From an uncultured Candidatus Saccharibacteria bacterium (GTDB taxonomy: Bacteria > Patescibacteriota > Minisyncoccia > 2-02-FULL-40-12), in assembly GCA_964368135.1 (NCBI GenBank), contig CAYIZI010000001.1, positions 42,926 to 106,925 of the forward strand: DNA of 64,000 bases, written 5' to 3'. Numbering within the stretch: position 1 is the stretch's first letter; every line of letters begins with the position of its first letter. The position numbers and the translations under genes are program-made. Below are positions 12,561 to 14,895 of the stretch, piece after piece. The notes beneath the pieces are model-generated. The model made no database searches, was not told where the DNA came from, and worked only from the letters and a program-made list of their open reading frames with translations.

Positions 12561-12950
12561 TTAAAAACTGATCGCTATCCTCAAATTATGAGTTCCGGCA
12601 ATGGTGTGGGCAACGGTTATGGCAACAGGCAACAGATACCACAGTTTGTGGTCTCTTTTCTTCATTTCATAGCTAGCATAGAACACCCCGGCGTCGACAG
12701 ATCCTTGAACCACATAGAGCCACGGCTTCCCTGCTTCTACAAAAGGTCTCATCAAGGGATTTAGCTCTCGGCCATTCTCATGCCTGCTAAAGGCAAAATA
12801 GGTGCTCTCCACGTCATAAATTGTGGAGCCGATCATAAGGGAATTCACGGTCCAGAATTTACTGTCGGCCACTTTTTCTTGCGTCTGGGCAAATGCCATA
12901 GAGCCGATCAGTAGTAAAAAAATGCTCAAAATCAGTGTTTTCTTCGGCAT
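12561..12950 (-). CDS. Hypothetical exported/membrane protein
   Basis: 129-aa ORF with a signal peptide (LILSIFLLLIGSMAFAQT) and an ELNPLMR motif. Confidence 0.45.
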   Translation of the reverse strand: MPKKTLILSIFLLLIGSMAFAQTQEKVADSKFWTVNSLMIGSTIYDVESTYFAFSRHENGRELNPLMRPFVEAGKPWLYVVQGSVDAGVFYASYEMKKRDHKLWYLLPVAITVAHTIAGTHNLRIAISF

Positions 12951-13006
12951 TTCCTTCCGCCTTTCTTTTTAAACTGCTAATATATATTATACCACTAAAC
13001 GCCAAA

Positions 13007-14404
13007 ATGAAAAGGTACCTGCTGATAATCCTGGCTCTAAGTATTGCGACTCATTTCGCTTTTTTCGGCTATCCGCCAGAAACGGTCTTTGACGAAGTTC
13101 ACTTTGGGAAGTTTGTTTCCGGCTACTTTACCGGCGAATACTATTTTGACATTCATCCGCCGCTGGGAAAACTTATCATTGCCGGCATGGCTAAAATTTC
13201 GGGCTTTGAGCCGGGCTTTTCTTTTGAAACCATCGGCCAGGAATACCAGGATAACTCTTATAAATGGTTAAGATTTTTACCAAAACTTGCCGGTAGCCTA
13301 TTACCGGCAATTGCTTTCTTAATCGCATTGGAGTTAGGCATCAGCCAGAAATTCGCCTTTCTGGCCGGACTGCTGATTGTTTTTGAAAACTCATTACTTG
13401 TTCAGTCGCGTCTTATTCTACTTGACTCTTTTCTGCTTCTTTTTGGATTTTTAGGAATCCTTTTTTATCTTAAATTTAGAAAAACCGACGATCTAAAACC
13501 TAAAACCTATCCGGCTATCTGGCTTTTTCTTGCTGGTTTCTTCGCCGCCTTAGCCGCCTCAATAAAATGGACTGGCCTTGGCTTTCTGGCTTTAATGGGG
13601 ATTTTTTATTTTATCAATTTACTCAAATCCCCAGTAGCAGAACCTCGCAGACTCGGCTCACTACGGGGCACGGCAGAAGAAAAGTTAAAACTGGCACTTA
13701 AGGGCCTGGTGTTTTTAATAGTCATACCGTTTATGATTTACTTTTTAATTTTCGCTGTTCATTTTACCTTCCTTGATAAACCAGGGCCAGGTCTTGCCTT
13801 CCATCCGCCTAATTTTCAGGAAGATAATATTTTTAAAAAATTTGTTGAACTGAATACTGAACTTTATGCAAGCAATGCCCGGCTTACCGCCACTCATCCC
13901 TATTCCAGCCAGTGGTATGAGTGGCCGCTTATGATTCGCTCGGTTTTTTACTGGCAAGGAGACAACGAACGCATCTATCTTTTAGGCAATCCGCTGATTT
14001 ACTGGCTCTCAACAGTTGCCGTGATTTATTTTTTAGTTAACTTTTTCAAAAATAGAAAAAATTTCAGTTATTCGTCCCGATTCGCTTCCAGCGAATCGAG
14101 GATCCTCGATTTTCGTTTACGAAAATCGGGATTATTAGTTATCGGTTATTTGTTAAACTTATTGCCTTTCATCTTCATCGGCCGGGTGATGTTTCTGTAC
14201 CATTACTTCATCTCCCTGATTTTCGCGGTTTTAATTACGGCTTATTCACTGGATAAACTTGATTTTGAGCATAAAAAAACTGCCTTCAATGCAATTTTAG
14301 CTGGTTCAGTAGTTTTGTTTCTATTTTTCTCGCCATTGACTTACGGCTTCTCGATTCCAGAATGGTATTATAAGCTTTTAGTCTGGTTACCTTCTTGGAG
14401 ATAA
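13007..14404 (+). CDS. Dolichyl/polyprenyl-phosphate-mannose protein O-mannosyltransferase homologue (GT39, GT-C fold)
   Basis: ATG 13007 (MKRYLLIILALS). TVFDEVHFGKFVSGYFTGEYYFDIHPPLGKL is the PMT loop-1 DE motif. Many TM helices. The track start 12935 overlaps the divergent gene. Confidence 0.75.
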   Translation: MKRYLLIILALSIATHFAFFGYPPETVFDEVHFGKFVSGYFTGEYYFDIHPPLGKLIIAGMAKISGFEPGFSFETIGQEYQDNSYKWLRFLPKLAGSLLPAIAFLIALELGISQKFAFLAGLLIVFENSLLVQSRLILLDSFLLLFGFLGILFYLKFRKTDDLKPKTYPAIWLFLAGFFAALAASIKWTGLGFLALMGIFYFINLLKSPVAEPRRLGSLRGTAEEKLKLALKGLVFLIVIPFMIYFLIFAVHFTFLDKPGPGLAFHPPNFQEDNIFKKFVELNTELYASNARLTATHPYSSQWYEWPLMIRSVFYWQGDNERIYLLGNPLIYWLSTVAVIYFLVNFFKNRKNFSYSSRFASSESRILDFRLRKSGLLVIGYLLNLLPFIFIGRVMFLYHYFISLIFAVLITAYSLDKLDFEHKKTAFNAILAGSVVLFLFFSPLTYGFSIPEWYYKLLVWLPSWR

Positions 14405-14440
14405 AAAAAGAGCCTCGTTTCTCCTTGCGAAGAAACGGGG
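14404..14440 (-). terminator. Rho-independent terminator, minus-strand specific
   Basis: The minus strand reads ccccgtttct-tcgcaagg-agaaacgagg, then ctcttttttt. There is no T-tract on the plus strand. Confidence 0.7.
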
Positions 14441-14566
14441 CTGGCGAATCACCTGATATAAAGAAGTTCCTTAGTGGAAATAATAGTACTAAACCTCAAT
14501 TTTTCTTAATTTAATGTTGATTTTTACCATTACTGTCCACTAAGCAACCTCCCCTTTTCCCCTGAT
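14404..14566 (-). ncRNA. Candidate small RNA (unclassified) between a consensus promoter and a terminator
   Basis: Promoter at 14573-14600 and terminator at 14404-14440 on the same strand. No ORF longer than 13 codons. Internal long hairpin: 14536-14551 pairs with 14463-14478. Confidence 0.4.
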
Positions 14567-14572
14567 AATGCC

Positions 14573-14600
14573 ATTATAACACAGCTATATTTGTTGTCAA
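14573..14600 (-). promoter_or_regulatory. Near-consensus extended sigma-70 promoter
   Basis: The minus strand reads TTGACA, a 16-nt spacer ending in TGt, then TATAAT. It starts 7 nt after the glutaredoxin stop codon. Confidence 0.55.
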
Positions 14601-14606
14601 GTTTTG

Positions 14607-14849
14607 TTAATTTACCCCGAGTGCTTCATCTATCGCCCCTCGGTCAAATCCAACAATCACCTTGCCGTCAATTAAAATCAGCGGCACAGCCATTTGGCCG
14701 CTTATCTGAACAAGCTCCTGAATTCTGTCAGGATTCTTGCCCAAATCTATTTCTTCATACTCAACTCCTTTTTCTTTAAAGTATTCTTTAGCCCCCTTGC
14801 AGTAAACGCAAGTCGGAGTGGTGTAAATTTTTACGGTTTTTTGTTCCAT
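14607..14849 (-). CDS. Glutaredoxin-family protein (NrdH/Grx-like)
   Basis: 80 aa. KIYTTPTCVYCKGAKEYF (CxxC), and VPLILIDGKVIVGFD. Confidence 0.75.
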   Translation of the reverse strand: MEQKTVKIYTTPTCVYCKGAKEYFKEKGVEYEEIDLGKNPDRIQELVQISGQMAVPLILIDGKVIVGFDRGAIDEALGVN

Positions 14850-14856
14850 TAATTTA

Positions 14857-14895
14857 ATTATAACAAAAGAAAAAATATCATCAAGATGATATAAT
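14857..14895. promoter_or_regulatory. Divergent -10 boxes placed 6-7 nt from both start codons (leaderless-type arrangement)
   Basis: Minus-strand TATAAT (14862-14857) lies 7 nt before the grx ATG. Plus-strand TGaTATAAT (14887-14895) lies 6 nt before the DUF763 ATG. The palindrome atatcatc-aa-gatgatat overlaps. Confidence 0.4.

What the first reader, a model, noticed from the sequence alone, without database searches (positions are those of the whole stretch)
14404..14600. Orphan consensus promoter plus minus-strand-only terminator enclosing ~160 nt with no ORF: candidate novel small RNA
Seven nt after the glutaredoxin stop, the minus strand reads TTGACA-16 nt (ending TGt)-TATAAT (14600-14573). 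About 125 nt further on it reads ccccguuucu-ucgcaagg-agaaacgagg-cucuuuuuuu (14440-14404). The U-tract exists only on this strand and overlaps the stop codon of the convergent PMT gene. The enclosed sequence has no ORF longer than 13 codons. It can form a long hairpin, with gaggttgcttagtgga (14551-14536) pairing 14/16 with tccactaaggaacttc (14478-14463). The 5' ggaaaagggg mimics the terminator's 3' arm, so an alternative anti-terminated fold is possible; read-through would run antisense into the PMT gene. By eye I could not match it to SRP RNA, 6S, tmRNA, RNase P or any riboswitch class.
Basis: seen in the sequence. Interest (0 to 1): 0.6.

Follow-up and report, generated by a model that had tools for sequence, protein, structure and literature searches.

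The report
Conserved undescribed small RNA gene, Parcubacteria
Between two convergent genes of an uncultured groundwater bacterium (Parcubacteria) lies a small RNA gene with its own promoter; its roughly 95-nt hairpin is conserved in 13 related genomes, it matches no catalogued RNA family, and its function is unknown.

Summary
The minus strand carries the only perfect TTGACA-16-TGnTATAAT promoter in the 64-kb window. It is followed by a 95-nt hairpin (14554-14460) and an intrinsic terminator whose U-tract overlaps the PMT stop codon. No credible ORF lies between them.

Thirteen further distinct versions were found in groundwater Parcubacteria (Hainich, Rifle and other sites). All keep the exact -35 box, a -10 box and the hairpin. 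The hairpin is more conserved than the neighbouring coding DNA (84% against 66% nucleotide identity; third codon positions 50%). It folds better on the promoter strand in all 13 copies tested, has invariant G-U pairs, and shows a few compensatory changes at its base.

Rfam 15 gives nothing for the window copy or for 12 relatives, so it is not 6S, SRP, tmRNA, RNase P or a riboswitch. The RNA is absent from relatives whose PMT is 59% identical or less.

The part 3' of the hairpin is modular: total length runs from about 112 nt to about 590 nt, and the window copy (about 165 nt) is a short form.

Function is unknown. My best guess is a trans-acting, protein-bound hairpin RNA. The main rival is cis-antisense action on a PMT 3' UTR. 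Expression was not tested.

The parts
14595..14600 (-). -35 box TTGACA of the small-RNA promoter
   Evidence: 12/12 promoter match; unique in the window, 0.04 expected. TTGACA is exact in all 14 family members. In most relatives it lies inside the last codons of grx.
14573..14581 (-). Extended -10 box TGtTATAAT
   Evidence: The -10 box is TAT(A/G/T)(A/G)T in 14 of 14 members after a 16-17-nt spacer, usually preceded by TGn.
14555..14566 (-). Predicted transcription start (A at 14566, 7 nt after the -10 box) and single-stranded leader AUCAGGGGAAAA. Relatives read AUCAGGCUAAAAAG.
   Evidence: The start position is inferred from promoter geometry and was not measured. Leader conservation is shown. 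Its complement on the + strand supplies a U-run after the antisense hairpin (read from the sequence).
14460..14554 (-). H1, the conserved long hairpin that forms the core of the family: 31 consensus base pairs, an invariant middle section and a base that covaries
   Evidence: 97.7% of cells paired; 3 pairs and 10 cells compensatory; G-U pairs invariant. The covariance model scores 130.7 bits on the - strand against 33 bits on the + strand. The sense fold is more stable in 13 of 13 copies. Nucleotide identity is 0.84 against 0.66 for PMT coding DNA.
14496..14518 (-). A-rich apical loop of H1 (23 nt), containing the conserved run GAAAAUU
   Evidence: Alignment A1 and consensus fold. AAAU at columns 77-80 and the flanking AAAUC/GRUUU helix are conserved.
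14441..14459 (-). Linker UAUAUCAGGUGAUUCGCCAG. The motif CAGGUGAUUCGCCA is shared with L054; L051 and L077 have the related motifs GGAGGUGAUUCGUG and GGAGGUGAAUCGUG.
   Evidence: In relatives, 170-420 nt of extra structured modules lie between H1 and this point.
14403..14440 (-). Intrinsic terminator: a 12-bp stem with a GCAA tetraloop (14440-14413), then CUC and U7 (14409-14403). The U-tract overlaps the PMT stop codon by 2 nt.
   Evidence: The same hairpin, CCCCGUUUCUUCGCAAGGAGAAACGGGG, occurs in L053 and L054, and its base occurs in L068. There is no U-tract on the + strand.
12935..14404 (+). Convergent neighbour: PMT-family glycosyltransferase. The likely true start is about 13007, giving 465 aa as called in public assemblies.
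   Evidence: Pfam PMT and PMT_4TMC and the gene call of 465 aa. The 3' end of PMT abuts the RNA in every family member with enough flanking sequence.
14607..14849 (-). Upstream co-directional neighbour: glutaredoxin. It has no terminator of its own before the small-RNA promoter.
   Evidence: Pfam Glutaredoxin and sequence. Its own promoter-like site is at 14884-14857.

Best explanation
This is a real, independently transcribed, structured small RNA gene belonging to an undescribed family restricted to one sub-clade of groundwater Parcubacteria (Patescibacteria).

Predicted transcript: a near-consensus sigma-70-type promoter starts transcription at about 14566. The RNA consists of a 12-nt leader, a 95-nt rod-like hairpin (H1), a short linker, and an intrinsic terminator that ends at the PMT stop codon. 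Total length is about 165 nt.

H1 is the functional core. Its base is kept by structure, since it covaries. Its middle section and parts of its A-rich apical region are kept by sequence on both strands. That pattern is expected for a site recognised by a protein or other partner rather than for a simple stem. I therefore infer that the RNA acts in trans as a stable, abundant protein-binding (scaffold or sponge type) RNA. The variable 3' modules of relatives would be accessory domains; the window copy lacks them.

What is shown: the sequence elements, their conservation, the strand specificity of the fold, the absence from Rfam, and the restricted distribution.

What is inferred: transcription itself, the 5' and 3' ends, action in trans, and the protein partner.
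For: Promoter: it is perfect and unique in the window. The -35 box is exact and a -10 box is present in 14 of 14 distinct family members, whatever the upstream gene is: grx, ftsW or hicA.

H1: the covariance model built from 12 members scores 86-135 bits on all 14. 97.7% of cells are paired, against 43-60% when partners are slid. Three base-of-stem pairs switch between G-C and A-U. G-U pairs at alignment A2 columns 31/125 and 51/107 are kept in 13 and 14 of 14 sequences. The sense strand folds better than the antisense in 13 of 13 copies.

Purifying selection: H1 identity is 0.84, against 0.66 for the adjacent PMT coding DNA and 0.50 at third codon positions.

Not coding: all three frames are closed within the conserved core. 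One-nucleotide indels occur inside the conserved region. The small GTG frame in the 3' module of L051, L077 and L087 shifts frame between members (read).

The 3' modules are RNA-like on the same strand. One module, GUCUCU-[hairpin]-AGAGRCCG, occurs in 10 instances in 8 members. It has wobble pairs and one U-A to C-G compensatory change.

Not a known family.

Ten members were recovered by a DNA pattern search that did not use PMT, and every one with enough flanking sequence shows the same gene arrangement.
Against: No expression data were examined, so a discrete RNA of about 165 nt is unproven.

Covariation is thin: 14 of the 26 pairs in the main stem never vary, and only 3 pairs show double changes. 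The structure therefore rests mainly on conservation, strand asymmetry and thermodynamics.

Ten of the 14 sequences came from a search that required exact matches in two stem segments, which inflates the apparent invariance there. The 7 members recovered through PMT homologues (L051, L053, L054, L055, L087, L089 and L082/L084, which are the L074 and L076 types) show the same invariance apart from one change in L087.

No protein partner is identified. A 31-35-bp near-perfect duplex would be an RNase III substrate, so the mature species may differ from the primary transcript.

The invariable position against the PMT stop codon also fits a cis role.

These genomes carry small palindromic insertions, so some of the 3' modules may be selfish insertions rather than functional domains.
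Confidence: 0.55

Rival explanations
1. Cis-antisense and shared-terminator element of the convergent PMT gene. PMT has no U-tract terminator of its own, so its mRNA would read through the RNA gene on the opposite strand. It would stop only after the antisense copy of H1, which on the + strand is followed by the complement of the conserved leader A-run (CCCCUUUUCC in the window, CCUCUUUUUAG in relatives). The PMT 3' UTR would then be fully complementary to the strongly expressed small RNA. The duplex would be cut by RNase III or otherwise change PMT mRNA stability. The element would also insulate grx and PMT transcription from each other.
For: The RNA lies convergent to PMT, and its terminator (or H1 itself) lies within 0-20 nt of the PMT stop in most members. 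That includes the 10 members found without using PMT as the query. The + strand has no U-tract after the terminator hairpin but has a U-run directly after antisense H1 (read). In L063 and L075 no terminator follows H1, so the small RNA would run into PMT. In L055, H1 is flanked by an A-run and a U-run like a bidirectional terminator.
Against: A cis-antisense pair is complementary by construction, so it does not explain why the H1 sequence is held at 84% identity while third codon positions sit at 50%. It also does not explain why G-U pairs are conserved on the small-RNA strand only. Antisense H1 is a poor terminator hairpin: a 23-nt loop, C-A mismatches, and -15 to -37 kcal/mol against -29 to -39 for the sense strand. 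The whole block rpe-rpiB-trxB-PMT is syntenic in these genomes, so linkage to PMT may simply be inherited. Relatives without the RNA have PMT and grx 5 bp apart and do without it (L090). In L053 about 270 nt separate the RNA terminator from PMT.
Confidence: 0.2
2. Trans-acting base-pairing regulatory small RNA. A conserved single-stranded seed, either the leader AUCAGGCUAAAAAG or the apical loop AAGGAAAAUU, pairs with mRNAs elsewhere in the genome. H1 and the terminator serve only for stability.
For: The layout is that of a classic bacterial small RNA, with its own promoter, a conserved unpaired 5' end and an intrinsic terminator. The promoter is embedded at the end of the upstream coding sequence, as in MicL- or DapZ-type small RNAs (the comparison is from general knowledge). 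The leader is conserved in 12 of 14 members.
Against: The most conserved nucleotides are in the paired middle of H1, not in the unpaired parts. The leader is interrupted or displaced by insertions in L051, L073 and L087. There is no above-background complementarity of the leader or loop to the translation-initiation regions of PMT, grx or trxB in 7 loci; percentiles are mostly 0.2-0.99, with a single 0.02 that is not reproduced. The putative seeds are A/U-rich and carry little information. Genome-wide targets could not be searched.
Confidence: 0.12
3. Not a gene product of its own. The region is only the grx (or ftsW, or hicA) 3' UTR plus terminator, or a palindromic mobile or DNA-level element, and the promoter-like hexamers are incidental.
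For: The upstream gene is always co-directional and has no terminator before the element, so read-through transcripts must contain it. These genomes are rich in small palindromic insertions, even in frame inside PMT. In most members TTGACA is part of grx codons (GCG CTT GAC AAG), which could conserve it for coding reasons.
Against: TTGACA, a 16-17-nt spacer and a -10 box are kept in 14 of 14 members. That includes the window, L055, L074 (the L082 type, where hicAB precedes the RNA), L087 and L089, where the box is outside any grx coding sequence. A perfect match is expected 0.04 times in 64 kb. There is one copy per locus and one in the 64-kb window, with none in 47 other Patescibacteria loci, which is unlike a mobile repeat. 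Strand-asymmetric G-U conservation argues for an RNA-level rather than a DNA-level constraint.
Confidence: 0.1

Closest known systems
6S RNA (ssrS, Rfam RF00013)
   Same: An abundant housekeeping-type small RNA with its own strong promoter and a rod-like, largely double-stranded shape. Like the present RNA's inferred action, it works by binding a protein (RNA polymerase holoenzyme) rather than by base pairing.
   Different: No match to the 6S model even at E <= 10. H1 is a single hairpin closed by a 23-nt terminal loop. It is not two helices flanking a two-sided central bubble. The minimal members are only about 112-120 nt (L055, L063, L075), too short to mimic an open promoter. Length varies five-fold.
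Bacterial SRP RNA (4.5S, RF00169)
   Same: A single hairpin of about 100 nt with a conserved distal part, bound by a protein.
   Different: No Rfam match. H1 lacks the GNRA tetraloop and the conserved symmetric and asymmetric loops of domain IV (read from the sequence). Its distribution is limited to one sub-clade, whereas SRP RNA is universal.
Small RNAs with a promoter inside or at the end of the upstream gene (MicL and DapZ type, 3'-UTR-embedded small RNAs)
   Same: The -35 box lies in or just after the last codons of the co-directional upstream gene. The small RNA shares its terminator with that gene's mRNA.
   Different: Those are Hfq-dependent base-pairing RNAs of proteobacteria with a conserved unpaired seed. 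Here the conserved part is a long duplex, the upstream gene is interchangeable, and no target complementarity was found.
Large or modular orphan structured RNAs (OLE, raiA motif, ROOL, GOLLD)
   Same: The long forms (330-590 nt) are multi-domain, clade-restricted RNAs of unknown function with conserved helices and variable insertions.
   Different: No Rfam match to any of them. The core here is a single hairpin that also occurs on its own, and the accessory domains are dispensable: they are absent in the window, L055, L063 and L075.
Convergent-gene antisense arrangements and bidirectional terminators
   Same: The element sits exactly at a convergent gene junction. H1 is flanked by an A-run and, in L055, a U-run. 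The terminator U-tract overlaps the PMT stop codon.
   Different: It has a dedicated consensus promoter, and its sequence is conserved far beyond what termination or automatic antisense complementarity requires.

Membership tests
Free-standing bacterial small RNA gene (generic class) | Own promoter directly upstream | tested here: met
   12/12 TTGACA-16-TGtTATAAT, unique in the window with 0.04 expected. Conserved in 14 of 14 homologues with three different upstream genes.
Free-standing bacterial small RNA gene (generic class) | Intrinsic terminator on the same strand that defines a short transcript | tested here: met
   12-bp GC-rich stem with a GCAA loop followed by U7 at 14440-14403, on the minus strand only. 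Relatives have terminators at the equivalent place, except L063 and L075.
Free-standing bacterial small RNA gene (generic class) | No conserved reading frame | tested here: met
   No ORF of at least 20 aa lies within the transcript. One-nucleotide indels occur inside the conserved core, and stop codons close all three frames.
Free-standing bacterial small RNA gene (generic class) | Conserved secondary structure supported by covariation | tested here: inconclusive
   97.7% of cells are paired, against 43-60% in the slid controls, and 0 of 500 shuffles reach the observed covariation score. Only 3 of 31 pairs have double changes, and 123 of 500 shuffles reach that count. Support is structural and thermodynamic; covariation power is low.
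Free-standing bacterial small RNA gene (generic class) | A discrete transcript is detected | not testable with these tools
   No RNA-seq or Northern data are available here.
6S RNA (RF00013) | Match to the family covariance model; two helical arms around a central two-sided bubble | tested here: not met
   Not among the matches at E <= 10 in 14250-14750, nor at E <= 1 in 12 relatives. The consensus fold is a single hairpin with a terminal loop.
SRP RNA (RF00169, RF01854), tmRNA (RF00023), RNase P RNA (RF00010, RF00011) | Match to the family covariance models; for tmRNA, also detection by ARAGORN | tested here: not met
   No Rfam matches. ARAGORN finds no tRNA or tmRNA in the window. The GGAAAGUCCG string in L051 and L087 is an isolated 10-mer and is absent from the window copy.
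Riboswitch or cis-regulatory leader | Located upstream of, and co-directional with, a regulated gene; terminator and antiterminator alternatives conserved | tested here: not met
   Nothing is encoded downstream on the minus strand; the next gene is the convergent PMT. Leader-terminator complementarity exists only in the window copy, and relatives have a GGCU leader and unrelated terminators. No riboswitch family is matched.
Type I toxin-antitoxin or small-protein gene | A conserved short ORF with a ribosome-binding site | tested here: not met
   Candidate frames after the GGAGG-like strings (GUG or UUG inside H1; GUG in the 3' module of L051, L077 and L087) differ in length and shift frame between members.
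Mobile palindromic element (MITE, REP or RPE-like) | Multiple dispersed copies per genome, with no fixed context | tested here: not met
   One copy in the 64-kb window and one per related locus, always at the same gene junction. No copy in 47 other Patescibacteria loci. Whole genomes could not be scanned.

The most novel reading that the evidence does not exclude
The hairpin is the invariant core of a new, lineage-specific ribonucleoprotein RNA of Parcubacteria. Its size ranges from about 112 to about 590 nt through gain and loss of structured 3' and leader modules. That would make it a small-scale analogue of the expansion segments seen in CPR (Candidate Phyla Radiation) rRNAs, and of orphan large RNAs such as OLE or raiA. 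The window organism would carry a natural minimal version that defines which parts are indispensable.
Probability: 0.2. Interest if true: 0.7.

Novelty: new member of a known kind. Interest (0 to 1): 0.5.

Why it matters
Almost nothing is known about regulatory or structural RNAs in the Candidate Phyla Radiation, whose members are uncultured and have reduced genomes. This is a strongly promoted, sequence-constrained RNA that is kept in at least 14 populations from several aquifers and is absent from Rfam. Such an RNA is likely to have a real cellular role. The natural series of short and long forms shows directly which part is indispensable: the hairpin H1. That makes the RNA a tractable target for metatranscriptome mapping, covariance-model surveys and in-vitro partner searches. 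On its own it is one more orphan small RNA family, not a new principle.

Tried and rejected
- Known RNA families: Rfam was run at gathering score on the whole window, at E <= 10 on the locus and at E <= 1 on 12 related loci. Only chance miRNA, snoRNA and plasmid-RNA matches appeared, plus an unrelated 16S fragment in L068. ARAGORN found nothing.

- Distant homologues: nhmmer and blastn against 47 GTDB loci holding PMT homologues of 52% identity or less found nothing. The covariance model found nothing there either, nor in L085 or L090 with filters off. The family therefore appears clade-restricted; alternatively, it sits elsewhere in those genomes.

- Small peptide: frames starting after the SD-like GGAGG strings are not conserved.

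- CsrA-type sponge: AAGGA motifs looked enriched by eye. In a k-mer test against dinucleotide shuffles, the 15 most enriched 4-mers and 5-mers were dominated by the conserved H1 core, and AAGG/AAGGA were not among them. Dropped.

- Base pairing to neighbouring genes: duplex energies of the leader and loop against the translation-initiation regions of PMT, grx and trxB in 7 loci are not better than the locus background.

- Guide-RNA or phage-target idea: the whole-hairpin pattern gave 0 hits in IMG/VR. Each arm as an 18-mer gave 2 hits, which do not extend beyond the 18-mer and do not match the model, consistent with chance.

- Antiterminator: feasible only in the window copy and not conserved.

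- RNase P resemblance (GGAAAGUCCG in L051 and L087): an isolated 10-mer with no model match, absent from the short forms.

- The GUCUCU...AGAGRCCG module as an independent or mobile motif: no copy elsewhere in the window, and a related pattern for its 3' half (GAAGAGRCCGNRRGG) found no copy outside the RNA genes in the fetched loci.

- Literature: three full-text searches found no description of this RNA.
Full report
**1. The observation**

Reading the minus strand gives, in order:
- the glutaredoxin (grx) stop codon at 14609-14607;
- six nt of spacer;
- TTGACA at 14600-14595;
- a 16-nt spacer ending in TGt;
- TATAAT at 14578-14573.

The consensus scan scores this 12/12 with an extended -10 box, the best site in 10 kb. 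An exact TTGACA-N16/17-TATAAT occurs once in the whole 64-kb window on either strand, where shuffles give 0.04.

Downstream lies a terminator. Its stem-loop is CCCCGUUUCUUC-GCAA-GGAGAAACGAGG at 14440-14413, followed by CUC and seven U at 14409-14403. The PMT stop codon is + strand 14402-14404, so the U-tract overlaps it by 2 nt. On the + strand the same hairpin is followed by CUGGCG, with no U-tract.

The 171 nt between promoter and terminator fold at -58.7 kcal/mol, with z = -6.6 and 0 of 200 shuffles as stable. The + strand gives -39.3 and z = -3.6.

No ORF of 20 codons or more is contained in the transcript. A 21-codon GTG frame (14452-14387) runs through the terminator and beyond it, so it is not credible.

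The description is therefore accurate. The hairpin is longer than stated, spanning 14554-14460.

**2. Organism and context**

The flanking proteins are:
- a PMT-family glycosyltransferase (12935-14404, + strand);
- a glutaredoxin (14849-14607, - strand);
- DUF763, a thioredoxin-reductase-like flavoprotein, DUF5658 and ClpB.

PMT homologues place the window in Patescibacteria/Parcubacteria, close to Yanofskybacteria-like genomes. The identical grx gene lies on Hainich groundwater contigs from well H51. Those contigs contain the identical RNA locus.

**3. Homologues**

PMT homologues of 61-79% identity were traced to their contigs. All have a non-coding gap of 195-820 nt after the PMT stop. All except L085 contain, on the strand convergent to PMT, a sequence clearly homologous to the window's promoter, leader and hairpin.

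A DNA pattern taken only from the two hairpin arms was then searched in JGI metagenomes. It returned 23 loci, 10 of which are true members; the rest are chance matches with no similarity outside the pattern.

Fourteen distinct sequences are now known: the window, L051, L053, L054, L055, L063, L068, L073, L074, L075, L076, L077, L087 and L089. They come from Hainich wells H41 and H51, the Rifle aquifer (RIFCSPLOWO2_01_FULL_40_65), the 'Gr01-1014_2' MAG, other JGI samples and one Logan run.

Two relatives lack the RNA. In L090 (PMT 54% identical), PMT and grx are only 5 bp apart. In L085 (59%) the gap holds unrelated palindromic repeats. None of the 47 more distant PMT loci has it. The window contains a single copy.

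**4. What is conserved**

- Promoter. TTGACA is exact in 14 of 14 members, with a 16-17-nt spacer, a TAT(A/G/T)(A/G)T -10 box, and usually TGn before it. In most members the -35 box lies inside the last grx codons. It is equally present where the upstream gene is ftsW (L055, L087, L089) or hicA (L082), and in the window, where it lies after the stop.
- Leader. AUCAGGCUAAAAAG is present in 12 of 14 members. The window reads AUCAGGGGAAAAG. L051, L073 and L087 carry hairpin insertions of 35-80 nt before or inside the leader.
- Hairpin H1. It has 31 consensus pairs. On the 14-sequence alignment, 97.7% of cells are standard pairs, against 43-60% when partners are slid by 1-3 columns. Three pairs at the base of the stem switch between G-C and A-U (10 cells). 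Two G-U pairs are kept in 13 and 14 of 14 sequences. Fourteen of the 26 main-stem pairs never vary.

The fold is more stable on the promoter strand than on the opposite strand in 13 of 13 copies. The covariance model scores 130.7 bits on the minus strand of the window against 33 on the plus strand.

Mean pairwise identity of H1 is 0.84. The last 600 nt of PMT give 0.66, and third codon positions give 0.50. The RNA is therefore under stronger constraint than the adjacent coding DNA.

The pattern of a covarying base and a sequence-invariant middle is what one expects when the middle is recognised specifically by a partner.

One caveat applies. The pattern search forced identity in two 9-12-nt stem segments. 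The members found through PMT show the same identity there, and the neighbouring segments AGUAAUGGU and ACUAUUAUU, which were not in the pattern, are nearly invariant as well.

**5. The variable 3' part**

The RNA ends differently in different lineages.

| Member(s) | Approximate length | What follows H1 |
|---|---|---|
| L055 | 112 nt | A U-run directly after H1 |
| L063, L075 | about 120 nt | The PMT stop about 10 nt later, with no evident terminator |
| Window | 165 nt | A 19-nt linker and the terminator |
| Others | 330-590 nt | Structured modules, then a terminator |

The recurring modules are:
- GUCUCU-[hairpin]-AGAGRCCG followed by a long hairpin. It occurs in 10 instances in 8 members, and its closing helix shows wobble changes and one U-A to C-G compensatory change.
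- GUUCGGCAGGGCGCUGA... in L054 and L068.
- GGAGGUGAWYCGUGCGGAC...GUCCGUAGAGG in L051, L077, L087 and L089.

At least three unrelated terminators are used. The window's terminator is shared with L053 and L054.

None of these modules matches Rfam. The first module has no other copy in the window, and a related pattern for its 3' half (GAAGAGRCCGNRRGG) found none outside the RNA genes in the fetched loci.

The window copy is therefore a natural short form. H1 is the only element common to all members.

**6. What it is not**

- Not 6S, SRP, tmRNA, RNase P, a riboswitch or any other Rfam 15 family.
- Not a peptide gene: frames are not conserved.
- Not a dispersed repeat: one copy per locus, always at the same junction.
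The leader GGGG can pair with the terminator's CCCC in the window. Relatives have GGCU at that position and different terminators.
- No support for pairing with the start regions of PMT, grx or trxB.
- No phage matches beyond chance.
- No k-mer evidence for a CsrA-type sponge.

**7. Most likely mechanism**

I conclude that this is a genuine, separately promoted structured small RNA. My confidence that it is a functional RNA gene is about 0.8.

How it works is inference. The constraint is concentrated in a long duplex and its A-rich apical region, not in an unpaired seed. The promoter is of consensus strength. The 3' domains are dispensable. Together these features favour a stable RNA that acts in trans by binding a protein or another macromolecule. 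Confidence in the combined statement is 0.55.

The main rival (0.2) uses the one striking positional fact: the RNA always abuts the PMT stop codon. PMT lacks a U-tract terminator. On the + strand the first hairpin followed by a U-run is the antisense of H1 followed by the complement of the conserved leader A-run. A PMT 3' UTR would then be fully antisense to the small RNA. This rival does not explain the sequence conservation or the strand-specific G-U pairs. The whole neighbourhood is also syntenic, so the linkage may simply be inherited.

The remaining rivals are a base-pairing small RNA (0.12) and a 3' UTR or DNA-level element without its own transcript (0.1).

**8. Comparison with known systems and novelty**

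In kind, this is an ordinary object: an orphan bacterial small RNA gene with a sigma-70-type promoter and an intrinsic terminator, placed like a MicL- or DapZ-type RNA at the end of an upstream gene. In sequence and structure it belongs to no described family.

The long forms resemble clade-restricted multi-domain orphan RNAs such as OLE or raiA, but are not related to them.

I rate it a new member of a known kind. It is of moderate interest because regulatory RNAs of the Candidate Phyla Radiation are essentially uncharted. The five-fold natural size series around an invariant core is also unusual and experimentally useful.

Expression data and a wide covariance-model survey are the decisive missing pieces.

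Noticed in passing
window ~14080-14150 (within PMT, 12935-14404 +); also L063: The window's PMT carries an in-frame insertion of about 19 aa (SSRFASSESRILDFRLRKS) that is absent from six relatives. Its DNA is two adjacent near-perfect palindromes, CCCGATTTTCGTAAACGAAAATCGAGG and ATCCTCGATTCGCTGGAAGCGAATCGGGAC on the minus strand. A second 15-aa insertion (PVAEPRRLGSLRGTAE) is shared only with P0001. This resembles in-frame insertion of small palindromic elements into coding sequence, as known for Rickettsia RPEs.
   Followed up: partly
L051 ~4245-4320, L073 ~510-580, L087 ~4722-4760 (minus strands): Hairpin-forming insertions of 35-80 nt lie between the promoter and H1, or inside the leader, of the small RNA in three relatives. 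The RNA gene tolerates insertions at its 5' end as well as at its 3' end.
   Followed up: partly
L085 4560-5000; L087 4840-5140: MITE-like palindromic repeats (TTGCCGAyrAAT...ATTTGTCGGCAA) fill the region downstream of PMT. In L085 they occupy the place where the small RNA would be.
   Followed up: no
L053 ~3800-4060; L073 1-40; L055 ~3800-3850: A further conserved element (GAGCGAGGG...TATACCCCGAGCG, or GGCTATGCCCAAGCG) lies between the small-RNA terminator and the PMT stop in some relatives. Its nature is unknown.
   Followed up: no
L082/L083 4799-5316: A hicA-containing pair (a HicA toxin gene and an adjacent 93-aa ORF) is inserted between grx and the small-RNA promoter. The promoter and RNA are kept intact.
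   Followed up: no
L087 and L089 (both from GCA_007376425.1): One MAG holds two diverged versions of the same syntenic block: rpe-rpiB-trxB-PMT-sRNA-ftsW, with PMT 66% and 61% identical to the window. The bin is probably a mixture of two populations.
   Followed up: no
L090 3620-3626: In a relative whose PMT is 54% identical, PMT and grx are convergent with only 5 bp between them and no small RNA. The RNA gene was either gained in, or is retained only by, a sub-clade.
   Followed up: partly
window 14857-14884 (-) and 14902 (+): The grx promoter-like site (TTGATG-16-TGtTATAAT) lies in the 52-bp gap between grx and the divergent DUF763 gene. grx has no terminator before the small-RNA promoter.
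   Followed up: no
L068 8110-8300 (-): The 3' end of a 16S rRNA gene (116.8 bits) lies about 1.3 kb upstream of the small RNA in this relative. It could be used for taxonomic placement.
   Followed up: no
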